From Naegleria gruberi (Eukaryota), in the NCBI GenBank assembly GCA_000004985.1, contig GG738902.1: 64,000 bases of DNA; one strand, written 5' to 3'. Of the stretch, positions 24,540-53,425 are shown one piece after another. The position numbers were made by a program, and so were the translations under genes. The notes below the pieces were generated by a model, which worked only from the letters and a program-made list of their open reading frames with translations, had not been told where the DNA came from and ran no database searches. Numbering within the stretch: position 1 is the stretch's first letter; each line of letters opens with the position of its first letter.

Positions 24540-26231
24540 TTATGGAGTAATATTTTGCAAATAGAATGGATTGACAGTTGACCTTTGTTTTTTGTTTTCT
24601 GGGAGTGTTGGTGTTGAGGGAGTTGATGTGTTTAAGATATTTGTATCGTTTCTTTTGTGTTTCCTTCTACAGTAAAAATCTTTTGCTGCTTGTTGGATTT
24701 CAGGATGATTCTTGAAGGTTGTGGCATATCCAATAGTGATTGGATCTTGAGAAACAGCACATAATACAATATCTATTGTTTTTTCTAAAGCATATTCTAG
24801 AAGGTGGGGATTTCTCTTCAAGCATTCTTTGAGTAGGTCTATATATCCATCAAATTTGTTTGTAACATGCATGATGGCGCAAGCTGTTTCATCTGTTGCT
24901 ATCTTTACAAAATCCTTGTTCCATTTCAAGTGTTCAGCAGCATACTGTAGTAATAGCCCATCTTTTCGAATATACTTTTCCATAAATTCAGTCTTACTTG
25001 TTAAATCAGAATGAACATATTTCAAAAGGTGTACATCTTTTTCCAAAACCATTTCAACGAACTCTTGCTCTTTTCTAAGAGTTTCATGAGCAAACTTGAA
25101 AGCAATTGGATTGATCTCAATTAATTTCTGCATAAAATTCTTGTTATTTGCTAAGGAAAAGGAGTTATACTCTAACGCAAATTCTGGTCTAATTGTAAAG
25201 GCCATGATTGTAAAGCTCTTGAGAATCTCAGTAATATTTAAAGGTATCTCTTTTGAAGATTCTTCTTGAATTTTGTTGATTAATTCTTTCAGTTCGTTTT
25301 GATATTTCCAATTTTCTCCGTGGGAATAAAGTTCCAATAAGCAATCCCCAAAATTTTTCAAATCTTCAGCAAATGCTTGATTTTGAATTTTTGATTTGGT
25401 GAGGGTTTCTTTTGATTTAATTAAGGAGGTCAAAGACGCAGCATATTCCAGATCAATTAGAATTGGATCGTAAATTACATCGTACCCTCTTATAACTTTC
25501 GATCCAATCAGAAAGTTACTTAGCTTCAAATCATAATGTACATGCTCCATTTGCTGTAAATATTCTATAATGGAGGCCATTCTCATTGCAATTATCAAAA
25601 AGGATATTTCACTTAATGGCTTTGGAATATTTGACAAGTCACCATTTGGATAGAAAACCATATGATAACCCATGTAGGATTGAAAATCCTTATCATATGC
25701 ATCCATAAACTCAATGGCACGTTCATAACTAATAATGTTTGAGCAATTTTCTAACAACATTACTTTCTCAACCTCTCTCTTGACCTCCTTTTTCGGACCT
25801 TTGGTAATCTTTATCACTACTTTTTTTCCTTTCCATAGGGCTGTGTATAAGTGACTTCTTTGACCCTTTCCATATGACTTTAAATCTCCGTATCCTAATA
25901 TCTGTAAATAATTTAATATGAATCTCGTTTCATAATCAAAGAAAATCTTTTTCTGTTGTTTTGTGGTGTCAAAGTATTGCCACATCTCCTTCAAACAATC
26001 ATCATTCGCAATATTGACGATTTCTTTCTTGGAATCATCCAAATAGTAAAACCTGGCAATATAAGGATCTTGTTCGTCTAAAAGTTTTTCAAAATTTGTT
26101 TTAAATTCCATCAAGTTTAATTGTTTGAATTCCTTCGCACCAACAACTATGTGTGGTGTAGCATCATTAACAGACGTGAAGAAATACACTGTTTCATTGT
26201 CATAAACAGGGCTGTTACCATTTAGCAACAT
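24540..26231 (-). CDS. Protein-kinase-like (probably pseudokinase) protein with C-terminal DUF4116-type alpha-helical repeats
   Basis: The glycine loop is degenerate (GYGDLKSYGKG) and is followed by VVIKITKG. The catalytic loop reads HYDLKLSNFLIG in place of HRDLKxxN. DFG is replaced by IDLEYA. The C-terminal part has 4-5 repeats of the ~25-aa unit ...LLxYAxExLKxNxxFV.... Confidence 0.5.
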   Translation of the reverse strand: MLLNGNSPVYDNETVYFFTSVNDATPHIVVGAKEFKQLNLMEFKTNFEKLLDEQDPYIARFYYLDDSKKEIVNIANDDCLKEMWQYFDTTKQQKKIFFDYETRFILNYLQILGYGDLKSYGKGQRSHLYTALWKGKKVVIKITKGPKKEVKREVEKVMLLENCSNIISYERAIEFMDAYDKDFQSYMGYHMVFYPNGDLSNIPKPLSEISFLIIAMRMASIIEYLQQMEHVHYDLKLSNFLIGSKVIRGYDVIYDPILIDLEYAASLTSLIKSKETLTKSKIQNQAFAEDLKNFGDCLLELYSHGENWKYQNELKELINKIQEESSKEIPLNITEILKSFTIMAFTIRPEFALEYNSFSLANNKNFMQKLIEINPIAFKFAHETLRKEQEFVEMVLEKDVHLLKYVHSDLTSKTEFMEKYIRKDGLLLQYAAEHLKWNKDFVKIATDETACAIMHVTNKFDGYIDLLKECLKRNPHLLEYALEKTIDIVLCAVSQDPITIGYATTFKNHPEIQQAAKDFYCRRKHKRNDTNILNTSTPSTPTLPENKKQRSTVNPFYLQNITP

Positions 26232-26780
26232 TTTTTCTCTAAACCTCTAAAAAGGCTGATCACGTTCTAGTCATAATCATTCCGAAAAACTGATGGTTGA
26301 TCAGATGATTAAGATATGGAAGGATTAATTTTTGTTAAATTTTTTTTAAGAAATTCAAATTGAAAGACATATTATAAATTTGAGGCAACAAATTGTTTTA
26401 AATTAATTGAGAATAGGATTTATTTGTAAAATTGTAGGCTAATCCTTTGATTTCACCAAATCTTAGAATTTCACAACACTTCCTTTACTGTTTTGGTTGT
26501 TATAGAATTTGTATTTCGAAAGCATTAAATTGAAACAAACTGAAAGCTCAAAACATTCCACTCATCTATGTACTCACCGTTTCAATTTAATGCAAACACA
26601 AACAATTGACTGCTTTTATGTTGTTTTATTAAATTGTTTGAATAGGAATCTTTCAGCTTGCACTAATAACATGAAATCATCAAGTTATTTTGTTGGTTAT
26701 TTAAAAGAATCTCACGGAGGACAATATACCACTCCGAATCATCATCATCAACACAAAAAAATAACATTCAACACCTTGTG

Positions 26781-27593
26781 ATGCTCTCAAAGAAATTTCT
26801 TCTTCTATTAGTGCTAAATCTTCTTTCAATTGCTGCTTTACATGTTAATGCTGCAGGTAGTCAAGCTTTTTGCATTCACACACTTTCGGATGGAAGAACA
26901 ATTGACTTGAATAGAGCAACCAAATCATCAGCCGATTATTTCCTCTACGATAAGGATACCAATTATTACTTTTATATGAATATTTGCAAGGATGCACTCA
27001 AGAGTTGTGATGGACAAAGTTACGGAGGAGTTGCCTATACGAAAGATCCAGGAGCTGAGAGTGAATTTTGTGCAACCTACATGAGTGGATCAACCAGTGA
27101 ACAGAATTATCAAATTTCACTTATAAACTCACAGAAACCTGAATTGGGAGTTGTTTTAGTTGTGAGAGGAGGTGAAAAAGTCCTCACAAGAACACAACAA
27201 ATGAAAATTACAATGAATTGTGCAAAGAGTGTTGGAGATTTGAAATTTGTTCAGGAAAACTTTGTGGACTCGAATATTGTTTTTGAATTTTCATTGGATA
27301 CTCCAGCTGCTTGCATTGTAACTGATGATAATAATTTGGGAGGATTGGGATATTTGGGTTTAGCTCTCTTGTTGATAATTATTATCATGATTCTCTATTT
27401 TGCAATTGGATACATTGTAAATTGTCTTGCTTTGAATAAGGAAGGTGGTTGGTCCTATACTCAACTTCCTCAATTCAAATATTGGAAATTACTATTCCAA
27501 TTGGCTTGGGAAGGATGTTTATTTATCAAGGAAGGAATTCAAAGTTTAATTTTCAAATTTATTTTGAGAAGAGCAATTTATGATCAAATATAA
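26781..27593 (+). CDS. Type-I membrane protein with an MRH (mannose-6-phosphate receptor homology)-like luminal domain, a single TM and a YTQL sorting-like tail
   Basis: A signal peptide, Cys spacing with the Y-x-Y-x-x-N-I-C pattern, one TM segment (GLALLLIIIIMILYFAIGYIV), and a cytosolic Y-x-x-hydrophobic motif. Confidence 0.4.
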   Translation: MLSKKFLLLLVLNLLSIAALHVNAAGSQAFCIHTLSDGRTIDLNRATKSSADYFLYDKDTNYYFYMNICKDALKSCDGQSYGGVAYTKDPGAESEFCATYMSGSTSEQNYQISLINSQKPELGVVLVVRGGEKVLTRTQQMKITMNCAKSVGDLKFVQENFVDSNIVFEFSLDTPAACIVTDDNNLGGLGYLGLALLLIIIIMILYFAIGYIVNCLALNKEGGWSYTQLPQFKYWKLLFQLAWEGCLFIKEGIQSLIFKFILRRAIYDQI

Positions 27594-27646
27594 TTCTTTA
27601 TTTTCATTGTTTTCATTTAATATTCCGATATGACAAAGATGTTTAA

Positions 27647-28567
27647 ATGCCAAGCTGTCAAAGATCAAAAAAATGTTTCATGCAATGCTCCCACAGAACA
27701 ACAAACACCACACAACCACACCACAACAGGCAAGTAAATTATTTTCATTCCACTCTAATAATTAATCCAGATATTCCTTCGGATTGGGTATTAATTGGAG
27801 AGGGAGGTTTCGGAAAAGTTTACAAAGGTAAAAAGGATGGACAAGTTAAAGCTTTTAAAATTATTAACAACAAAGATGATGCACTCACTGAATTCACGAA
27901 TACTGCCACAGTTTCTGGTCATCATCATGTTGTCAAAATTTATAGTGCAACAATTATTACAAATCAATCTCTCTGTATTGAGATGGATTATTATGAGAAT
28001 GGTAGTTTGCATGATTATTTCATTAGAAAGAATAACAAACCTCCTTCTGCTAACATGATCAAGTCAATCATGACACAAGTACTTGATGCTCTCATGTACA
28101 TGAAACAAAATTTTAATATGGTCCACAGAGATATCAAACCAGGAAATATTTTGGTTAGGAGAATTGAAAATGATAGTATTGATATTTGTTTGGCAGATTT
28201 TGGAATGGCAAAGAATACTCCTGGTTTATCTGAGAATTCTTCATTGTCACGTGCTAAGGGAACTGAGGGATTTATTGCACCTGAAATATATAGGCCAATA
28301 TCTGAGCAACGTTACTCATTGGCATCTGACATTTTCGCTTTAGGTGCAACCTTATTTAAACTCATGACTCGAATTTCACTAAATGAGTTTCCTTATTTTC
28401 AATGGAGTCTGGATGAACCAACAAAAAGAAATCATTCATCAAAACTAGAAGAAATGATTTACAAAATGTTAAAAATCAACACCTCTACTCCACATGAATT
28501 AATCCAAAACATTTCGAAAATGTTCATTACAGATACAAAACTCGATTTTAATTGTGAAATACTTTAA
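27647..28567 (+). CDS. Ser/Thr protein kinase (306 aa)
   Basis: IGEGGFGKVYKG...VKAFK, HRDIKPGNILV, DFGMAK and APE motifs are all present. The last 8 codons plus the stop lie inside an inverted repeat arm. Confidence 0.7.
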   Translation: MPSCQRSKKCFMQCSHRTTNTTQPHHNRQVNYFHSTLIINPDIPSDWVLIGEGGFGKVYKGKKDGQVKAFKIINNKDDALTEFTNTATVSGHHHVVKIYSATIITNQSLCIEMDYYENGSLHDYFIRKNNKPPSANMIKSIMTQVLDALMYMKQNFNMVHRDIKPGNILVRRIENDSIDICLADFGMAKNTPGLSENSSLSRAKGTEGFIAPEIYRPISEQRYSLASDIFALGATLFKLMTRISLNEFPYFQWSLDEPTKRNHSSKLEEMIYKMLKINTSTPHELIQNISKMFITDTKLDFNCEIL

Positions 28568-28939
28568 ATTTACAATATTAAATGAATGAAAATAAAGAAA
28601 ATAAAGAATTATATTTGATCATAAATTGTTCTTCTTAAAAGATTTTGTGTGTTGTGATTTGTTTCTTGTAAATGAAAGAATTTTAACAGTTATTGATTCA
28701 CAGAGCTGTTCTCACTACTAACATTGTAACTCAAACAAAAGAGCGTTAATTTACGAGCTAGACATTCAGGATCTTTTTCCTATCGTAATCTTTCGATTGG
28801 TTCGCTAACCTCACCTTTGGAGAGTTCACTTAATTCACTTGTTAACTTTTTAACTTGATTGAAATTGTAATTACATAGCTGATTAAGTCTGTGTTCTTTT
28901 GCAGCTCTTCCATAAAGTATTTCACAATTAAAATCGAGT
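28541..28939. repeat. Perfect 26-bp inverted repeat CTCGATTTTAATTGTGAAATACTTTA at 28541-28566 and 28914-28939, with a 347-bp spacer
   Basis: Exact reverse-complement identity was checked base by base. The left arm overlaps the kinase stop codon. The right arm is 68 bp upstream of the ATG at 29008. Confidence 0.7.
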
Positions 28940-29007
28940 TGGCAGAGATTTTTTATTATCAAATGTCAGCACGTCAAACTGCCAAAATTATAATCAAACG
29001 ATAAAAA

Positions 29008-30366
29008 ATGAATCACAAGCTGGTGGGCCAAGGGTCTTTGTCATCCAACAGGTTCTCATCCTCACCATCTAACCACAATCATCTCAACAAATTATTCCTT
29101 CTCCTCGTAACAATTTTCACAATTTTCTTTATTAATTTTTCCACATCGACCTTCATTCCACCGATCAATGAAATTCTTTCCGATCAAAAAGAATTTAACT
29201 CCTTGACTGGTTCTCCATCAAGTAGCCCCCCAGGTGCTAGCAATGTTGTAATTCTTCAATCACCTGGAGTTTACAATTATTCAGTTTATGATGATTTGGA
29301 TTTTTCATTCCATTTGCCTGCTTGTCCAGATTCATTGTACAGAAATAAGAATACTAATCAATTGGAATTAATTGTTCAATCACCATCTACTTTTTCATTA
29401 TTTATTGTTATTGCCTTTTCCTCACTTTTATTTGCTAGTATTGTTTTTAGTTCTTTCAATTCTGTTTTCTTACCTCATATTAGAAAGAGAATTAGAACAA
29501 GTTCAATTTCTAATAATTTGTGGATTGTTTACTTTGTTTTTGTTGGATTGAGAGCTGTTTTGAATGCAGTTCACTTTGGAAAACCAACAAGTTTGAGAAA
29601 GGACAGTAAATTCCTATATGCCATGACCATAGTAGGAATGATTCTTCATTCATTGACTGCCTACTTTTTAACACTTGCTTTGAATTATCAGAGAAAACAT
29701 AGAAGTGGATTTTCTGTGGAGGCAACAGGTAATAGTAGACTCTCCTCATTCCACCAACAAATTTACGAAGATAGAGAGGAAGAAAAATTACAATCAACAT
29801 TCCAGAGAAGAACTGCATGGATTAGGAAAATTGTGGTGAAGGGATTTTGGGTTATTTTCTCATTTGAATCATTGGCAACTATTTGTTTCACATTTTCATT
29901 GATTGCCATCTTTTTACGTGCCTTGAATGCCAACTCTGCTCAAAGTGGTGAGCTCTACAGATGGATTCAATTAGGAGCAATGCTCTTTCAAAGAATTCCA
30001 ATTATTATCATTTGCTTTTTAATTATCATGAGTGGATTCTTCTCAATTTTCAAGAAGAAATCTTCACAAGATCACAGAACAGGAGGTCCAACAATTTTCA
30101 CAAGAATTCTCATCTTTGTTGCCCTACTCTTAAATATTCCCAATGATCTTCCACTTTCGTATTGGAACTATTTCCTTTACGGATTGAGAGAGGATAGAAT
30201 TGTTCCTGGATGCATGTTCTATTTTGCAAGTATTTTCGATGCTGTCCTGTTGCTTTTCTTCTTTTCACTTGTCTTGTGGCTTTTTGTGATGATTATTGAG
30301 TTTAGAAGATATAGAAAGGAAACTGTTGAAGCAGCACTTTCTGATACCGTAGAGAATTTCGAATAA
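29008..30366 (+). CDS. Signal peptide plus seven-transmembrane receptor-like membrane protein
   Basis: 452 aa. An N-terminal signal/anchor, an S/P-rich luminal segment of about 90 aa, then 7 hydrophobic helices. Confidence 0.5.
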   Translation: MNHKLVGQGSLSSNRFSSSPSNHNHLNKLFLLLVTIFTIFFINFSTSTFIPPINEILSDQKEFNSLTGSPSSSPPGASNVVILQSPGVYNYSVYDDLDFSFHLPACPDSLYRNKNTNQLELIVQSPSTFSLFIVIAFSSLLFASIVFSSFNSVFLPHIRKRIRTSSISNNLWIVYFVFVGLRAVLNAVHFGKPTSLRKDSKFLYAMTIVGMILHSLTAYFLTLALNYQRKHRSGFSVEATGNSRLSSFHQQIYEDREEEKLQSTFQRRTAWIRKIVVKGFWVIFSFESLATICFTFSLIAIFLRALNANSAQSGELYRWIQLGAMLFQRIPIIIICFLIIMSGFFSIFKKKSSQDHRTGGPTIFTRILIFVALLLNIPNDLPLSYWNYFLYGLREDRIVPGCMFYFASIFDAVLLLFFFSLVLWLFVMIIEFRRYRKETVEAALSDTVENFE

Positions 30367-34068: not shown

Positions 34069-37000
34069 ATGTCGACCACCACTAGGAAGCCATTGCAAGA
34101 CATTTCCAATAAGGTACACCTTGTGAAGTCTACTACTAGCCAATCCACTAGTAGTCAGATGAAGAGTAAAGCTAAGGAAATGATACCTGTAAAACAATCA
34201 AAGAGCTCTAGGATGTTTGATATCAGGGCCAACAATAACAAATACGATACTCCGGAACGTGATAATGATATGGATTATGGTTCTCCAACATCGATTGGTT
34301 CCTTGGAAGAGGAATTTGGGGAATTGTCTGATTTAAGGGAGTTTTATGATGAAGTCTCATCAGACATTAACGAAAAAATTGTAAAGTCTCTTGAAAGAGA
34401 AAAGGAAAAGAATACACGATTAGAGTTACAAAGCGAGAGGGATAGAGCTCAAATTATAGAACTCCAACAAGAAAAGAACAAGCTATCACGCACTATTGAA
34501 CAACTAAAAAAACCTGCAAAGGTTGAAAAGCCAGAAATTGATTTTAATGGGCAAGTTAATCAACTAAATGAAAAGATTTCCAAATTGGAAAAGAAGGTTG
34601 AAATTGAAACTCAACAAAAAGAAAGACTATCTAACTTGTTAAAAACTAAGGAACAAGCACTCTCTAAAATTAAAGAAGAAAACGATAAGGCAGTAACAAA
34701 AGGGCCAATAGAGGAAAAGTGCTCTAGAAAACTCCAAGATCAAATCAAAATCAAGGAAGAAAAGATTGAGCGTATGAGTAAGGAAATTGAAAAGGAAAAG
34801 AACACAAAACAAGAATATGAAAACCTTATTCAAGGGCTTCAAGAAGTTTCAGACAATCTGAGAATGAAATTATCTGCCTCCAACGAAGAAATTGAAACTT
34901 CCAACAAGCTGATCGAGATTTTGGATGCCAAGCTCAAGATTGCCAACGATAGATGTAAGGACTTGGATGAGCGATTGAAAAAAGGAGAAGAAAAGAGAGA
35001 AGAGGAAAGTTCAGAACTGTTAGCACTCAGAGAAGAGATGTCACATTTATGTGATTCAGTGTTGAAGGAAAAGCAGGAATCAGAGAGAAAGACTCAACAA
35101 CTCAATCACATCCAAGCAGCTAAAGAAAAATATGAAAATGAATATACAAGAACTTGCACCAAGCTGAAAGAAAAAGAGGAAGAAACTGAAGAACTCAAAA
35201 AGGTTATTGAAAGGCTTGAACAACAAATCGAACAAATGGGCCACGATATTGATGATTCTTCAAAGGAACTTGAAGAAATCGAGAATAACTTTAGAACAAG
35301 GCTTACTGACGCAGAAGAACAACTTGCTGAAAAAGAGGAAGAAATACAGTCCATGAAAGTGAAGGAAGAAAGAACAATGGAACAATTAAAAGAGCTTGAT
35401 GTATTTGTAGAGAGAACTAAACGAAAGATTGACAAGGAGAAAGAAAAGACCAAAGACTCTGAAGAAAGAGCCAATGCAGAATATGAAAAGGCCCTTCAAA
35501 TGATTGAAAGAAACAATGCTTTGATGAGAAAGTTAGAAGCTGTAACAAGAGCAAACCATTCCTTGGAGGAAGAAGTCAAGGAAAAGGAAGACTTAATGTT
35601 AAGATTCAAGAACTATATCGAAGATGTTGAAAATAAGCTCCACAATAAGGAAGATGAATGTAGTCAAACAGTATCCAGATTAAACTCAACATATGAAGAG
35701 TTACAAAAGGAGAAGGCAAAATCAGACAGATCATGGAAAGAGCTTGAGGAGACTGTCAAAATGCTCCATCAAATCCAAGCTGAGAAGGAAGTTTTGGAAA
35801 AGAAGAGCAGCCACTCAAAGGAAGTATTGGAAATGAAGATGAATAATAAGATTTCCATGTTAGAAAAGAAGTGTGACTACCTCAAACGTTTGCATGAAAT
35901 GAATGGAGCAAGTGAAAGCGATCAAATCAAGGAAATGGAAGGGTACATTGAAAGATTAACAAAGGAAAATGAAAAATCAGGTGAAGCTGTTTCTCAACTA
36001 GAGATTACCCTTTCCGAAAAGGAATCTGAAATTTCAGTCTTGCAAGAAAAGGTAAGACAATTAGAAGATCTCCTCAACAATCAAAATCAATTACATTCAG
36101 CAAATCTTAAACCTAATGATCTCAAGAAGAGACTCATGACTGTTGAAAAATCCATGGATGAAATAATTATTGACCTTTCTATTGAAGGAATAACTTTGAG
36201 TCAACTTAATCCAAGAGAAAAAGCTGTTGTCATTCTAGAAAAGTTTACTGACATCAAGAAGGAGTGTCAATCTTTGGCTAGTATTAAGGATCAATATAGC
36301 GCAGAATTACAAAGACTTCGTGAAGCCAAAGCAAATTCTGAACGCCAAATGATCTCCCTCAGAGATGCTCTAACCAACGAAGTTGTTGAGAGAAACGAAG
36401 GGTGTATTACCGATCTCACTGACAGTTGTACCTTCCTTTACAATACTCTCACAGATGCTATTGAACAAAGAGAACTAGAAGATGCAAATATTCCACTGAG
36501 TTCTGAACTCTTGGATGAATTGTTGGAATCTGTTCTCTCTATTCAAGTTAACTTGAAGAAAGTTAGTAACCATTTGAATCAAGTTGATACTCTTCAACAA
36601 GTGATGGATTCTCAAAATGTATTTAATAAGGACTTTGTTTCTTTATGTGGGGAATTGGAAAACAGAGTAAGATCATTAATAGAAGAAAGAGATACTTTGC
36701 TAACTGCTCAATTCCAATTAAAGGACAAGGAAAAAGGAATCTCGAATGGTGTAAAGAAAAAGCTTGACAAGTTAATGTATAAGAATGTTATGATTCAAAC
36801 AAGTTCACAAACTCAATCTGCAGAGGGTGAAACCCAAACAGTGGAAAGTGGAGTTGGTTGTGAAGCAGAACAAGATCAACCAACCAACGCAGAAAGAGAA
36901 CAAAACACTCACACAGAGCAAGAACATGAGAGCCTTAAGAATAAGTATCAAAAGCTTTTGGCTACCTGTCACAAGTATAAGAAGCTCATGCTTAAATTTA

Positions 37001-37467
37001 CTCAACTCCACACCAAAGAAAAAACCAATGTCAGACAATCCATCCCAAGAGTGACCAATCAATCGAATATTTCACAACAAGATTCTATTCACAATGAAGA
37101 TGAAACTCATCAAGATCAATATGAAGAAGAACAAAATGAGGTGGTTGACCATGATGATTATCAAGACAATTACCAAGATAATTATCAAGAAAATGTTCCA
37201 GTCATTCGTGCCTCTCTTCACCACCCACTTTCATTTGATAAGGAAAATACCACACCAAAATCAACAAGACATAACCAATCAAATGGTGACAGTAGTGATA
37301 ATAGCCCTTCCAATGCCTCTGTTTCATCTGTAAGATCTGTCTCTACAACATTGAGTGTAGCATCTGAAAGAAGTTCCTTCTCTACCATTTCCTCCAAATT
37401 TAGAAAAAATCAAGCTCCAAACTCTTACCTTTCCAGTCATATGTCAGTAAGAAACAGACTCAAATAA
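34069..37467 (+). CDS. Large coiled-coil protein (1132 aa, E/K/L-rich heptads) with disordered S/Q/D-rich termini
   Basis: A continuous ORF from an ATG. The central stretch of about 850 aa has a strong heptad periodicity. There is no motor or other catalytic domain. Confidence 0.55.
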   Translation: MSTTTRKPLQDISNKVHLVKSTTSQSTSSQMKSKAKEMIPVKQSKSSRMFDIRANNNKYDTPERDNDMDYGSPTSIGSLEEEFGELSDLREFYDEVSSDINEKIVKSLEREKEKNTRLELQSERDRAQIIELQQEKNKLSRTIEQLKKPAKVEKPEIDFNGQVNQLNEKISKLEKKVEIETQQKERLSNLLKTKEQALSKIKEENDKAVTKGPIEEKCSRKLQDQIKIKEEKIERMSKEIEKEKNTKQEYENLIQGLQEVSDNLRMKLSASNEEIETSNKLIEILDAKLKIANDRCKDLDERLKKGEEKREEESSELLALREEMSHLCDSVLKEKQESERKTQQLNHIQAAKEKYENEYTRTCTKLKEKEEETEELKKVIERLEQQIEQMGHDIDDSSKELEEIENNFRTRLTDAEEQLAEKEEEIQSMKVKEERTMEQLKELDVFVERTKRKIDKEKEKTKDSEERANAEYEKALQMIERNNALMRKLEAVTRANHSLEEEVKEKEDLMLRFKNYIEDVENKLHNKEDECSQTVSRLNSTYEELQKEKAKSDRSWKELEETVKMLHQIQAEKEVLEKKSSHSKEVLEMKMNNKISMLEKKCDYLKRLHEMNGASESDQIKEMEGYIERLTKENEKSGEAVSQLEITLSEKESEISVLQEKVRQLEDLLNNQNQLHSANLKPNDLKKRLMTVEKSMDEIIIDLSIEGITLSQLNPREKAVVILEKFTDIKKECQSLASIKDQYSAELQRLREAKANSERQMISLRDALTNEVVERNEGCITDLTDSCTFLYNTLTDAIEQRELEDANIPLSSELLDELLESVLSIQVNLKKVSNHLNQVDTLQQVMDSQNVFNKDFVSLCGELENRVRSLIEERDTLLTAQFQLKDKEKGISNGVKKKLDKLMYKNVMIQTSSQTQSAEGETQTVESGVGCEAEQDQPTNAEREQNTHTEQEHESLKNKYQKLLATCHKYKKLMLKFTQLHTKEKTNVRQSIPRVTNQSNISQQDSIHNEDETHQDQYEEEQNEVVDHDDYQDNYQDNYQENVPVIRASLHHPLSFDKENTTPKSTRHNQSNGDSSDNSPSNASVSSVRSVSTTLSVASERSSFSTISSKFRKNQAPNSYLSSHMSVRNRLK

Positions 37468-43192: not shown

Positions 43193-43403
43193 CCATTCGT
43201 ACCAAATTACTACATGATAGGTAAATATCGACCGATTCTCTGTAGTTCATACTTTGTCAAAGTAATGTTTGTTAGGAAGACGTGTGGTCGATTTTTTTTT
43301 TGCTTTGTTTGATCGAATCCCAAAATGTAAACTACCTGAAGAATTAGGAAAACTTGCTCAATTTAAAAAAAAATCAAACACAAAAAAATACAACAGACCT
43401 GTT

Positions 43404-45930
43404 ATGAAAGAATCATCAGCGTCTCTCGCACAGAGTTGTGTTGAACAAAAGGATTGGAATCATCAGCAGCAGCAACAAGAACAACTGCAACATCATGAGA
43501 GGGATTTATTTTCATCAATAGCAACAACTAACAATGAAACGTGTTGTCAACAAGAACATACAAGTAAAATAGGAAAGTTAATATCATCATTATGTATATA
43601 TAATTCGAAGAGTCATAATCGGATCAGAGTTTCAAAATTTTGCAATGTAAAATTATGGATAATAATTGTATATTTATTAATATTATTAGATTTATTTTCT
43701 GTACAATACATTCATGCGGAGGTTTTATCATTTGAGAACAAACATCATCACGAAACCGATGTTTTAAAAAAGTTTAGGGAAATGATACGGAAAAGTGATT
43801 ATCCATTAGAAAATTTAAAATCACCCTCTGATAATCATCCTCTGATATTTCCGATTTTTGATAAGAAACGAAATTCTTATCATTCCAAAGGATTTTGGAG
43901 GACAATAGAAGGATTTTATCCTGTTTATAACGAGCAACCAAAGAGAGTTAGCAATAGTGAAAAGAAGACATCTACTACATTGAAACTTTTTACTGCTTTA
44001 CAAAAAGAGAATGGATTGGCAGATGCTGTTGGAAATTATCTAAACAAAGGTTTAGATATCGAGTCTATGGTCAATCCAAATGAATTAATTACGAGAACTG
44101 ATTATCTTCCAGAAGACAAATCTAAATTATTTTACACTAATGTGCATGTTGCAGGTTCACTCAAGATGAATCTGGTTTTTAAAAAAACTATTTTGAGAGA
44201 TTATTACTTTGTGTATGGAACAGTTGCCATGAGGAATGGTAAATATTTCCTTGAGCGAGAAAATTTGCTCTTTCTAGAAGGAGTCTACTCTCTCTTTACC
44301 AATCAATTTCATTTCATTTTAAAACCTAAGAAATACTTATTTTATAGAATGCCAGATTATCTAGATAAGGAATTATTGAATCAAACAGTATTTAATGGAG
44401 ATGCTGGAGCAGAGTTGGCCTATCATTCCTATGTGGATCATTATATTGAAGAATTACAAGAAATGGGTATGGACTATGACTCATACTCTTACTATAGCTC
44501 AGCCTACCATTCTCAACAAGACTCTGTCAACTTTGAAAAATCTAAAAGAGAGAGTTGCGTATTTAAAGGACTAGGTATTGGAAAAGCTAATATTCACGAT
44601 CAAAAACTTAAAAACTTTGTTGAATCATTTGAAACCAATGATTTTAATGAAATTTTGGAGTGGAGTCTCTCAGGAATTGTTACTGGTATTAATTGTAATC
44701 ATACCCTCATGTTCTCTCAAACATTCCATGATAATAGTGAATTTACTCATGAAGTCAAGATTTTCTTGAGAATCTCTACACTTCTTTCCATCTTTCTCAT
44801 ATTTGGCATGTTGAGACAGATCAAGAGTACTGCTACAAGATCAGCAGCACAAAGGATCTCAATTCTGTTCGTCGGCTTTACATTTACACTTTCTTTCCTT
44901 TTCTTCTCTGGATCTCTCATTTTCCTTTTCAACTTTTACTCAGTTTTTAGTATTTCATTGGCTCTTTCCTTTATGAGTTTCCTCTACCTAACTTGCAGCA
45001 TTCAGTATGTGCTTTACATTTGGAAGTCTCACTATCCAAATCATTACGAGAATGTGGTGAGAGCCTCTGTTTTCTTTTTCTTTTGGGGATTTTTAATGAC
45101 TGTATTATTTGGAGGGTACGTATTAGAAATAATTGTTAATTTAACATTTGAGAAAGTTATTACCTTTCACACGTATATCCACACTTACTGAGATATATTT
45201 TATTTATTGGATTTTCATTCATTGTTCCTCAAATTATTTCAAACTTTGTTTACAATACCAGAAAGTCGGTGGATTTGGTCTATTTGACCTCTCTTGTGGT
45301 ATTCTTTTCATTCCTGGTACTATGTAAGTTTCATTTATTAATTCATTGAATTGATTGGTTGAACTTCTGTTATTGTAGACTTTGGAACAAGACCTGAAAA
45401 CTTTTTGGAATTTAAAACAAACTATACTTACTGCTTCCTAATTCTATCCTACATGTATATTCAGTATGGTATCTTTTTAGCACAAAACTTGATTGATCCT
45501 AGATTGAATATTTTGAGTACTCACTTATTTGGATTTATGCTTCCACCAAAATACAATTATCATAGACCAATTCCAGAATCGATGTTGGAAGAGGGAGAGT
45601 GTAAATGCGTTATTTGTATGTCGGAAATTGAAATACCTGAAAATGATACAACCAGTGATGCCTTACTAGTGGAGGTCAATAACAATTCAACTCTAACAAA
45701 TAGAAAAAAGAAAGCAGAAAATTATTCGTCAAAAGACTTTATGGTCACACCTTGCAATCACGTTTTCCACACAGTTTGTCTGGAGAAGGTTAGTTTTTTC
45801 TGATTTAAATTAATTTTTAATATTTCTATTGTGATAATTCTCAATAATTATATATTTATTTTAATAATTAAAGTGGAAGGAATATAAGCTAGAATGTCCT
45901 TTGTGCAAAAAGGATTTGCCAATGAACTAG
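43404..45930 (+). CDS. TUL1/Dsc1-like transmembrane RING-H2 E3 ubiquitin ligase. Four exons: join(43404..45115,45262..45323,45379..45788,45874..45930).
   Basis: A luminal N-terminal domain, then about 7 TM helices, then a C-terminal RING-H2 (CKCVICMSE...PCNHVFHTVCLEK|WKEYKLECPLCKK). The RING is assembled across GTACGT, GTAAGT and GTTAGT introns. Every exon junction keeps the frame. Confidence 0.6.
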
Positions 45931-52573: not shown

Positions 52574-53425
52574 TTACAAATTCAATTCTTTGAATGCTTT
52601 ATAACCAGAAGCTAATGCTTCATAGACTTCTTCAAGTTCAGATTCAGAATAATCCTCTGGAATGTAAGTTGTTCGATTGAATGGATACATGTAGTTTTCA
52701 TATCCCTCACTCTCAGCTCCTGATTCAGGGTCAGCACAAATCTTGTTGTAATATTCTTCTCCTTCAGAGATGATTTTACACACAGCATACATTCCACCAT
52801 CATCTAATCAAATTGTCATTTGACAAGCTCAATAATAAAAAAACAAACCTTCAAAATCATCCATATCATTATCTCTTCCAATACTAACCAAATGATCCAA
52901 AACCTTATAGAATTTAGTTTCAATCCTAGCAGCAATGTCAACCAATGAATTATCCACAATAATCTTTTCAACATTATCACATTTTCCTTCTGATTTTCCA
53001 ACAATCCACCAAAACAATCTCTCAAGTCTCTCATCATCATTCTTTGTTACAAATCTTCTCTTCAACAATTTCATCACCAAGCCATTAAACTCATTTAAAT
53101 GCTTTAATCTTCTAGAATACAATGGAAACTCCTCCATCATGGCCTTCTCATAACGTTTATCCATCACAGAAAGGTCATAAAAACTCTTCGAAACCAATTT
53201 AATGTTTTGCAATGCCTCAACATTTGCATAATCAAGAATTAAGGAGAGAATTTCCTGAGGACACTCAACATTATTCAATTTAATGGACGATAGAGTTGCT
53301 GATTCGGATCCGAATACAAGAACCTGATCAGTCATTGCCAACTCTATCATTTCATTCATGTTCATTTCGTCGCGTTTTGTTTTTTTTGCACCTTTAGTGG
53401 ATTCTTCTTTTAATTGTCGTTTCAT
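52574..53425 (-). CDS. F-box-like hypothetical protein. Two exons: complement(join(52574..52803,52849..53425)).
   Basis: CPQEILSLILDYANVEALQNIKLVSKSFYDL (F-box-like). The donor is gaa g|GTTTGT and the acceptor attAG, a 45-nt intron. The frame joins ...DMDDFEG|DDGGMYAVCKII.... Confidence 0.45.

What the first reader, a model, noticed from the sequence alone, without database searches (positions are those of the whole stretch)
28541..28939. Perfect 26-bp inverted repeat bridging a kinase stop codon and the next gene's promoter
CTCGATTTTAATTGTGAAATACTTTA at 28541-28566 is exactly reverse-complemented at 28914-28939. The spacer is 347 bp. The left arm encodes the last 8 residues (KLDFNCEIL) and the stop of the Ser/Thr kinase. 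The right arm lies 68 bp upstream of the 7TM gene ATG. Three origins are possible. It could be the terminal inverted repeats of a roughly 400-bp MITE-like insertion, though no obvious target-site duplication is visible. It could be a long-range RNA hairpin in the kinase 3'UTR. It could be a small inverted segmental duplication. A perfect 26-mer is far beyond chance in 64 kb.
Basis: seen in the sequence. Interest (0 to 1): 0.55.

Follow-up and report, generated by a model that had tools for sequence, protein, structure and literature searches.

The report
Inverted copies of neighbouring gene ends
The perfect inverted repeat is real, but it is one of two interleaved inverted copies of the tail ends of neighbouring Naegleria gruberi genes, most likely a scar of a local DNA rearrangement and not a transposon or a demonstrated RNA switch.

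Summary
The window is Naegleria gruberi nuclear DNA. The repeat exists and is slightly longer than reported. It is 28 bp and perfect (28539-28566 / 28913-28940), with about 5e-7 expected by chance.

Segment A (27562-27624) is the last 32 nt of the upstream ATG27/M6PR-like gene plus 31 nt of its 3' flank. It is copied in reverse complement as A' (28574-28640), 7 nt after the kinase stop, with 59 matches, 4 mismatches and one 4-nt indel. These are the only above-chance local inverted repeats in 64 kb. They interleave as A < B < A' < B'.

The protein tail encoded by A is conserved in N. fowleri and N. lovaniensis, so A' is a derived copy of unique host sequence.

Nothing supports a MITE. There is no target-site duplication, no further copy in the window, no coding capacity and no Rfam match.

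Best reading: a footprint of local rearrangement, either template switching in replication or repair, or an inversion with breakpoint duplication. Which arm of the 28-mer is the original is unresolved. A dsRNA role is possible but untested. Genome-wide copy number could not be checked with these tools.

Modest interest.

The parts
28539..28566 (+). B: left arm of the perfect 28-bp inverted repeat. It covers the last 9 codons of the kinase and the first two bases of its TAA stop.
28913..28940 (-). B': right arm, the exact reverse complement of B. It lies in annotated intergenic DNA and ends 67 nt upstream of the 7TM gene ATG.
27562..27624 (+). A: the native 3' end of the ATG27/M6PR-like gene. 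It comprises the last 10 codons ..LRRAIYDQI, the stop, and 31 nt of 3' flank. It ends 22 nt before the kinase ATG.
   Evidence: The protein tail is conserved in N. fowleri and N. lovaniensis.
28574..28640 (-). A': a derived inverted copy of A, with 59 matches, 4 mismatches, one 4-nt indel and a 32-nt perfect core. It begins 7 nt after the kinase stop. It contains a 9-nt tandem repeat, GAAAATAAA x2.3.
28567..28573 (.). 7-nt junction (AATTTAC) between B and A'. Its first base completes the kinase stop codon.
28641..28912 (.). X: 272-nt spacer between A' and B'. GC is 33%. It has no significant similarity to neighbouring genes, no ATG-initiated ORF, no protein or RNA family match, and its origin is unknown.
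27647..28567 (+). Ser/Thr protein kinase ORF of 306 aa. The NCBI model covers only the last 194 aa. The ORF is bracketed by A (22 nt upstream) and A' (6 nt downstream).
26781..27593 (+). ATG27 / mannose-6-phosphate-receptor-like gene of 270 aa, identical to an NCBI N. gruberi model. It is the source of A.
29008..30366 (+). Multi-pass membrane protein gene of 452 aa (XP_002671824.1, NAEGRDRAFT_81406), downstream of B'.

Best explanation
The 28-bp repeat is one half of a compound, interleaved pair of local inverted duplications at the 3' end of a Naegleria gruberi kinase gene. Short stretches of unique neighbouring sequence now also exist nearby in reverse complement: the 3' end of the ATG27-like gene (A) and the 3' end of the kinase CDS (B). 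The order is A - kinase...B - 7 nt - A' - 272 nt - B' - 67 nt - 7TM gene.

I read this as a mutational footprint of local DNA rearrangement. The most likely cause is template switching during replication or break repair, which copies a nearby stretch from the complementary strand. The alternative is a small inversion of the kinase segment whose staggered breakpoint was filled in, which leaves inverted duplicates at its ends.

Shown:
- the two repeats, their coordinates and their non-randomness;
- that they are the only such repeats in the window;
- that A is the native copy and A' the derived one;
- the absence of transposon hallmarks.

Inferred:
- the mechanism;
- whether one event or two occurred;
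- the direction of the B/B' copy.

If B is the derived arm, one event rewrote 28539-28640 and created the kinase's last 9 codons, its stop and its proximal 3'UTR. If B' is the derived arm, the patches were written into the kinase-7TM spacer.

I expect no dedicated function. The incidental consequence is that any transcript reading through the spacer carries sequence antisense to two neighbouring mRNAs.
For: - Repeat real and far beyond chance.
- A second repeat of 63/67 nt at 94% identity sits at the same locus.
- These two are the only local perfect inverted repeats longer than 15 nt in 64 kb, while shuffles reach 17 nt at most. The events are therefore clustered, which argues for one complex event or a locus-specific history.
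- B and A' lie 7 nt apart.
- The ATG27 tail encoded by A (IFKFILRRAIYDQI) is conserved in N. fowleri and N. lovaniensis orthologues (IFKYILK[RT/RS]VYNAI). A is therefore ancestral host sequence and A' is its copy.
- No target-site duplication, no other copy in the window, and no hit in the protein databases, which include the N. gruberi proteome.
- The divergence of A/A' (6.3%) is compatible with zero mismatches in 28 nt (P = 0.16), so a single event is not excluded.
- Template switching is documented to create perfect inverted repeats and hairpins de novo (PMC5453318, PMC8794818, PMC10710096).
- N. gruberi is repeat-poor at 5.1% (PMC6125883), which lowers the prior for a MITE.
- Gene order and orientation around ATG27 differ between N. 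gruberi and N. lovaniensis, so this neighbourhood has been rearranged.
Against: - No outgroup or second N. gruberi strain close enough to show the pre-event state. The nearest genomes share no synteny downstream of ATG27.
- The source-to-copy distances (346 and 949 nt) are much longer than the tens of bp typical of described short template-switch mutations (PMC5453318).
- The origin of the 272-nt spacer is unexplained if A'-X-B' was written as one block.
- The rest of the N. gruberi genome could not be searched, so additional copies elsewhere are not excluded.
- Perfect identity of the 28-mer could also reflect selection or arm homogenisation, not only youth.
Confidence: 0.68

Rival explanations
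1. Regulatory RNA duplex. The kinase transcript, or a spacer transcript, runs through A' and B'. B:B' then forms a 28-bp perfect hairpin, or A' pairs with the 3' end of the ATG27-like mRNA. The resulting dsRNA feeds an RNAi-type pathway or controls mRNA 3'-end processing or stability. This resembles young plant MIRNA or hairpin loci born by inverted duplication of their target genes.
For: - The stems are thermodynamically strong: -35.7 kcal/mol for B:B' and -69.1 kcal/mol for A:A'.
- B:B' closes the minimum-free-energy fold of 28530-28950 on both strands, with z = -3.2.
- Both copies are antisense to mRNAs of adjacent genes when read on the + strand.
- Naegleria has candidate Dicer and Argonaute homologues (PMC13315211).
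Against: - There is no transcript evidence, and no poly(A) signal could be derived to place the kinase 3' end.
- The two helices are interleaved, hence mutually exclusive without a pseudoknot. In a transcript holding all four arms A:A' wins and B:B' is lost.
- A/A' has already accumulated 4 mismatches and an indel.
- There is no Rfam match.
- The folding z-score is a trivial consequence of the repeat itself.
- A 13-codon uORF at 28963-29004 (read) suggests the 7TM transcription start may lie downstream of B'.
Confidence: 0.1
2. MITE-like or other non-autonomous DNA transposon of about 400 bp (28539-28940), with 28-bp terminal inverted repeats, inserted at the 3' end of the kinase CDS. Alternatively, a 1.08-kb element (27562-28640) carrying the kinase between A and A'.
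For: The size, AT-richness, perfect 28-bp terminal inverted repeats, lack of coding capacity and gene-proximal location all fit a MITE.
Against: - No target-site duplication of any length at either repeat.
- No second copy of the arms or interior in 64 kb.
- Arm A is the conserved native end of a host gene.
- The putative 400-bp element would carry an inverted copy of the adjacent host gene end right beside its terminal repeat.
- The genome is repeat-poor (PMC6125883).
- The arms are absent from the viral, metagenome and prokaryote collections, though that is an uninformative negative for a Naegleria-specific family.
Confidence: 0.05
3. Eroded remnant of a larger inverted segmental duplication. 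On this view an inverted paralogous copy of a kinase + ATG27-like gene block decayed until only the two gene-end fragments stayed recognisable.
For: - On the minus strand the B copy and the A copy lie in the same reading frame, and a 60-codon open stretch follows the B copy.
- There are weak same-strand similarities of the spacer to the region upstream of ATG27L and to kinase paralogues.
Against: - The order is wrong for a simple inverted copy of the present ATG27L-kinase block, which would give B'...A' and not A'...B'.
- The weak similarities are not significant: 6 of 200 shuffles reached the best one, and p >= 0.07 against paralogues.
- There is no Pfam hit and no ATG in the open stretch.
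- The single phmmer hit is a spurious tandem-repeat ORF.
- Sharp repeat boundaries with 94-100% identity next to unrecognisable sequence do not fit uniform decay.
Confidence: 0.1
4. Assembly or cloning artefact in the Sanger draft.
For: None specific. The scaffold is a draft assembly.
Against: The two repeats are short, sit in unique sequence, and one of them has diverged through substitutions and an indel in a 9-nt tandem repeat. Chimeric clones do not produce that pattern.
Confidence: 0.02

Closest known systems
Template-switch mutations (four-point model; Loytynoja & Goldman 2017, PMC5453318; Monttinen & Loytynoja 2022, PMC8794818; 2023, PMC10710096)
   Same: A stretch of nearby sequence is written in reverse complement. 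In one step this creates a perfect inverted repeat that can fold as a hairpin. The copies have sharp boundaries and need no transposase or target-site duplication.
   Different: Described events are short-range, with source and copy within tens of bp and fragments usually under 100 nt. Here the copies lie 346 and 949 nt from their sources and there are two interleaved patches, which is closer to multi-switch MMBIR/FoSTeS-type repair (own knowledge). No ancestral sequence is available to show the event.
Inversions with inverted duplications at their breakpoints (staggered-break model, Ranz et al. 2007 PLoS Biol; cited from memory)
   Same: A and A' tightly bracket a 949-bp segment holding just the kinase CDS, with 22 nt on one side and 6 nt on the other. 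This is as expected if that segment was flipped and one staggered breakpoint was filled in. The inferred ancestral layout would be ATG27L and kinase convergent with about 37 nt between their stops, and kinase and 7TM divergent with about 389 nt between them. Both distances match other gene pairs in the window.
   Different: The model does not by itself explain B/B', which would have been a direct repeat before the flip. No outgroup shows the opposite orientation.
MITEs (Stowaway/Tourist-type non-autonomous DNA transposons)
   Same: About 400 bp, AT-rich, non-coding, perfect terminal inverted repeats, next to genes.
   Different: There is no target-site duplication and no other copy in the window. 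The repeat material is demonstrably host gene sequence, and a second host-derived inverted copy sits inside.
Young hairpin or MIRNA loci formed by inverted duplication of target genes (Allen et al. 2004 Nat Genet, cited from memory; de novo miRNAs by template switching, PMC10710096)
   Same: Inverted copies of gene segments sit next to the genes they match and could give dsRNA with extended complementarity to those genes.
   Different: The arms are 346-949 nt apart and are not a compact foldback. One arm is the coding gene itself. No transcript or small-RNA evidence exists, and RNAi in Naegleria is only inferred from homologues (PMC13315211).

Membership tests
MITE / non-autonomous DNA transposon | Terminal inverted repeats at both ends of a short non-coding unit | tested here: met
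   28-bp perfect arms enclose a 346-nt interior that has no ATG-initiated ORF.
MITE / non-autonomous DNA transposon | Target-site duplication directly flanking the terminal repeats | tested here: not met
   The flanks are ...ACAGATACAA| and |GGCAGAGATT..., with no direct repeat of 2-10 nt abutting the arms. The same holds for A/A' (TTCAAATTTA| and |GATTTTGTGT).
MITE / non-autonomous DNA transposon | Multiple dispersed copies in the genome | tested here: inconclusive
   There is no further copy of the arms (up to 3 mismatches) or the interior (word size 7) in the 64-kb window. The rest of the N. gruberi genome is not searchable with these tools. The viral, metagenome and prokaryote scans were empty.
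MITE / non-autonomous DNA transposon | Element sequence is foreign to the insertion site and not copied from adjacent unique genes | tested here: not met
   A' inside the unit is a copy of the neighbouring ATG27-like gene end, whose protein tail is conserved across Naegleria species.
Template-switch / templated inverted patch | The patch equals the reverse complement of a nearby unique sequence and has sharp boundaries | tested here: met
   B/B' match 28/28. A/A' have 59 matches, 4 mismatches and one 4-nt indel. Similarity stops abruptly at the ends.
Template-switch / templated inverted patch | Source and copy lie within one replication-fork neighbourhood (tens of bp in described short-range events) | tested here: not met
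   The distances are 346 nt and 949 nt, longer than in PMC5453318. This fits long-range multi-switch repair better than the classical short-range class.
Template-switch / templated inverted patch | The ancestral or sister sequence lacks the patch | not testable with these tools
   No close relative is available. N. lovaniensis and a metagenomic relative share only the ATG27 gene, not its downstream flank.
Inversion with breakpoint duplication | Inverted duplicates directly flank the inverted segment | tested here: met
   A ends at 27624 and A' starts at 28574. The 949-bp segment between them is essentially the kinase CDS.
Inversion with breakpoint duplication | An outgroup shows the segment in the opposite orientation with a single copy of the duplicated sequence | not testable with these tools
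   The kinase has no orthologue in the databases. The best paralogue is 45% identical.
Hairpin-RNA / proto-miRNA locus | Both arms lie on one transcript and are processed into small RNAs | not testable with these tools
   No transcript or small-RNA data are available. Folding only shows that the stems would form if co-transcribed.

The most novel reading that the evidence does not exclude
The kinase-7TM spacer is a newborn antisense or hairpin locus. A rearrangement placed reverse-complement copies of the 3' ends of two adjacent genes (ATG27-like and kinase) into the kinase 3'UTR and the 7TM upstream region. Read-through transcription then yields dsRNA (a 28-bp perfect stem and a 59/63-bp stem). 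That dsRNA couples the expression of neighbouring genes through an RNAi-type pathway in a heterolobosean, where endogenous small-RNA regulation has not been described. A related variant is that the event created the kinase's present C-terminal 9 residues and stop codon. That would be protein-end innovation by template switching.
Probability: 0.08. Interest if true: 0.6.

Novelty: new member of a known kind. Interest (0 to 1): 0.25.

Why it matters
The practical value here is a correct label. A perfect 28-bp inverted repeat next to genes is easily filed as a MITE or a regulatory hairpin. Here the second, interleaved repeat and the conserved host origin of its source show a local rearrangement scar.

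If confirmed with a related strain, it would be a clean, datable example in a free-living heterolobosean. It would show template switching or breakpoint duplication rewriting gene ends and intergenic DNA at distances of several hundred bp. It would also provide raw material, in the form of antisense segments to two neighbouring genes, from which hairpin regulators could evolve.

It does not open a long-standing question by itself.

Tried and rejected
- Exact look-up of the window proteins in assembled contigs, to get N. gruberi context or transcripts, found nothing on record for the kinase, 7TM or ATG27L products.
- Scans of the metagenome, prokaryote-genome and viral collections with the 28-mer and with the 32-nt core of A gave 0 hits each. 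This says nothing about copies within N. gruberi itself.
- I tested the minus-strand open stretch 28780-28962 as a gene or pseudogene, and reject it.
  - It has no ATG.
  - The word-index search returned 1 candidate and none with E <= 10.
  - The full phmmer search gave one hit (P0037, E = 3e-8). That hit is a spurious translation of a tandem DNA repeat matched in 8 weak stretches.
  - There is no Pfam match.
  - Similarity to kinase paralogues is not above shuffles.
- Spacer X was compared with ATG27L, its upstream region, the kinase and the 7TM gene. The best local alignment was reached by 6 of 200 shuffles, which is not significant after six comparisons.
- The apparent ATG27L paralogue at 52688-52722 (I2) proved to be a chance 35-nt match inside an unrelated ORF.
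- Rfam and tRNA searches found nothing.
- I tried to infer a poly(A) signal from 34 3' flanks in order to place the kinase mRNA end. AATAAA is no more frequent than its complement, and no k-mer stood out.
- Synteny with N. lovaniensis and a metagenomic relative: only ATG27 itself is shared, so the event cannot be polarised.
- I considered a phase-variation-like invertible switch using A/A' and reject it, because the arms have diverged by 6% plus an indel and so show no ongoing recombination.
- The bacterial promoter/terminator scanner was not used, because the organism is a eukaryote.

Full report
**Organism and setting**

The kinase ORF at 27647-28567 is 100% identical to an NCBI 'predicted protein [Naegleria gruberi]' on a 305,921-bp contig. 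The flanking ORFs 26781-27593 and 29008-30366 are identical to N. gruberi models P0032 and XP_002671824.1. The window is therefore N. gruberi nuclear DNA, at about 33% GC, with densely packed genes.

Pfam identifies three of the neighbouring genes:
- 27647-28567 is a protein kinase (E = 2e-38).
- 26778-27593 is an ATG27 / mannose-6-phosphate-receptor-like membrane protein.
- 24540-26231 is a DUF4116 protein with a kinase-like domain.

The 452-aa downstream ORF has no Pfam family. It has one N-terminal and seven further hydrophobic segments.

**Checking the observation**

The repeat is real and one base longer at each end than reported. AACTCGATTTTAATTGTGAAATACTTTA at 28539-28566 is exactly reverse-complemented at 28913-28940, with 346 nt between the arms.
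- No shuffle produced a match.
- The analytic expectation is about 5e-7 per window.
- Block shuffles never gave a local perfect inverted repeat longer than 17 nt.
- The left arm is the last nine codons of the kinase plus the 'TA' of its TAA stop.
- The right arm lies in annotated intergenic DNA and ends 67 nt before the 7TM ATG.

The same locus holds a second, longer inverted repeat.
- Segment A (27562-27624) is the last 32 nt of the ATG27-like CDS, including the stop, plus 31 nt of its 3' flank.
- It recurs in reverse complement as A' (28574-28640), with 59 matches, 4 mismatches, one 4-nt indel and a 32-nt perfect core.
- A ends 22 nt before the kinase ATG, and A' begins 7 nt after the kinase stop. 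The pair therefore brackets the kinase CDS tightly.
- A whole-window search shows that A/A' and B/B' are the only local inverted repeats above chance length in 64 kb.
- The four arms are interleaved in the order A < B < A' < B'. The layout is A - kinase...B - AATTTAC - A' - 272-nt spacer X - B' - 67 nt - ATG.

**Polarity**

The protein tail encoded by A (..IFKFILRRAIYDQI) aligns with the C-termini of the ATG27 orthologues of N. fowleri and N. lovaniensis and of a metagenomic relative (..IFKYILKRTVYNAI and similar). A is therefore native gene sequence and A' is a derived inverted copy of it.

For B/B' no orthologue exists, since the nearest paralogue is 45% identical, so the direction is open. 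Two observations would be explained if B were the derived arm:
- The repeat stops exactly inside the stop codon.
- B and A' are only 7 nt apart.

In that case one event rewrote 28539-28640 and thereby created the kinase's last nine codons and its stop. If instead B' is derived, A' and B' were written into the spacer, either separately or as a block with X.

The A/A' substitution divergence of 6.3% still allows zero mismatches in 28 nt (P = 0.16). The two repeats may therefore be the same age.

**Testing the transposon idea**
- No direct repeat abuts either pair of arms.
- Neither the arms nor the interior recur in the window at relaxed stringency.
- The interior has no ATG-initiated ORF.
- The interior has no relative in the protein databases, which include the N. 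gruberi proteome.
- The full phmmer search gave only a spurious repeat-ORF hit.
- The interior has no Pfam domain.
- The putative element would contain an inverted copy of the neighbouring host gene end immediately beside its left terminal repeat.
- N. gruberi is repeat-poor at 5.1% (PMC6125883).

The MITE reading fails the target-site-duplication test and the 'foreign sequence' test. Its copy-number test could only be done within the window.

**Testing the RNA idea**

If co-transcribed, B:B' forms a 28-bp stem of -35.7 kcal/mol that closes the minimum-free-energy fold on either strand, with z about -3.2. That follows trivially from the repeat. A:A' is stronger at -69.1 kcal/mol. Because the pairs interleave, it displaces B:B' in a transcript spanning all four arms.

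There is no Rfam family. I could not derive a poly(A) signal from the window's 34 3' flanks to place the kinase mRNA end. Candidate Dicer and Argonaute genes exist in Naegleria (PMC13315211), so a dsRNA consequence is conceivable. Nothing here shows it.

**Testing a decayed larger duplication**

The arm order is wrong for an inverted copy of the present ATG27L-kinase block. The spacer also shows no significant similarity to ATG27L, its upstream region, the kinase, the 7TM gene or kinase paralogues.

**Most likely explanation**

The structure is a footprint of local rearrangement that copied unique neighbouring sequence in reverse complement. Two known processes fit.

(a) Template switching in replication or break repair. 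This writes reverse-complement patches with sharp ends and creates perfect inverted repeats in one step (PMC5453318, PMC8794818, PMC10710096). The distances here, 346 and 949 nt, and the double patch are beyond the classical short-range class. They resemble multi-switch repair.

(b) Inversion of the 949-bp kinase segment with fill-in of a staggered breakpoint (the Ranz et al. 2007 model, cited from memory). This would explain why A/A' hug the CDS. It implies an ordinary ancestral layout:
- ATG27L and the kinase convergent with about 37 nt between their stops. Other convergent pairs in the window have 20-46 nt.
- The kinase and the 7TM gene divergent across about 389 nt.

It leaves B/B' to a second event.

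The neighbourhood has been rearranged between N. gruberi and N. lovaniensis, but those genomes are too distant to polarise this event. I put about 0.68 on the rearrangement-scar reading overall, 0.10 on a selected RNA duplex, 0.10 on a decayed larger duplication, 0.05 on a MITE and 0.02 on an artefact.

**Novelty and score**

This is a new instance of a known kind of mutation, with an unusual interleaved geometry and longer range than usually described. Interest is modest (0.25). The most novel reading still allowed is a newborn antisense or hairpin locus linking three adjacent genes, or a kinase C-terminus created by template switching. I give that about 0.08.

Noticed in passing
27647-28567: The NCBI gene model for the kinase (P0001) is 194 aa and starts at an internal Met (MDYYENGS...). 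The ORF is 306 aa, and its N-terminal part carries the glycine loop GEGGFGKVYKG and the rest of the N-lobe, matching Pfam Pkinase from residue 49. The public model looks 5'-truncated.
   Followed up: partly
27594-27646: Only 53 nt separate the ATG27-like stop from the kinase ATG on the same strand. The kinase promoter and 5'UTR must therefore overlap the upstream gene's 3' end, or the two genes are co-transcribed.
   Followed up: no
3408/3454, 6020/6067, 38297/38318: Convergent ORF pairs in this window have only 20-46 nt between their stop codons. This implies overlapping 3' UTRs as a general feature of this genome region. Some of these ORFs may be exons and not whole genes.
   Followed up: no
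28963-29004: A 13-codon ATG-initiated upstream ORF (MSARQTAKIIIKR*) ends 3 nt before the 7TM gene ATG. Either the transcription start lies downstream of it, or the gene carries a uORF.
   Followed up: no
28588-28608: A' contains a perfect 9-nt tandem repeat (GAAAATAAA x2.3) that is absent from A. It accounts for the 4-nt indel between the arms and puts two AATAAA hexamers 24-40 nt after the kinase stop.
   Followed up: partly
43269-45924 and L001:2962-5163: A DUF2921 + RING gene lies about 16 kb downstream of ATG27L on the same strand here. In N. lovaniensis it lies about 5 kb upstream of ATG27 on the opposite strand. The neighbourhood is kept but its order and orientation have changed.
   Followed up: partly
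34069-37467: A 1132-aa ORF with very strong A-over-T bias (AT skew 0.36 at 34-36 kb) and no Pfam match.
   Followed up: no
24540-26231 (minus strand): A 563-aa protein combining a weak kinase-like domain with three DUF4116 repeats. It is transcribed divergently from the ATG27-like gene across a 546-nt spacer.
   Followed up: no
P0037 (database protein, not in the window): The only phmmer hit to the spacer ORF is a 797-aa 'protein' made of about 66-aa tandem repeats (..CVWLSVCTVQYGTAQSEHYLNSVFGCQFVQFSMVLHSQNI..). It is evidently a translated satellite. Its E-value of 3e-8 comes from summing eight weak repeats and is not homology.
   Followed up: yes
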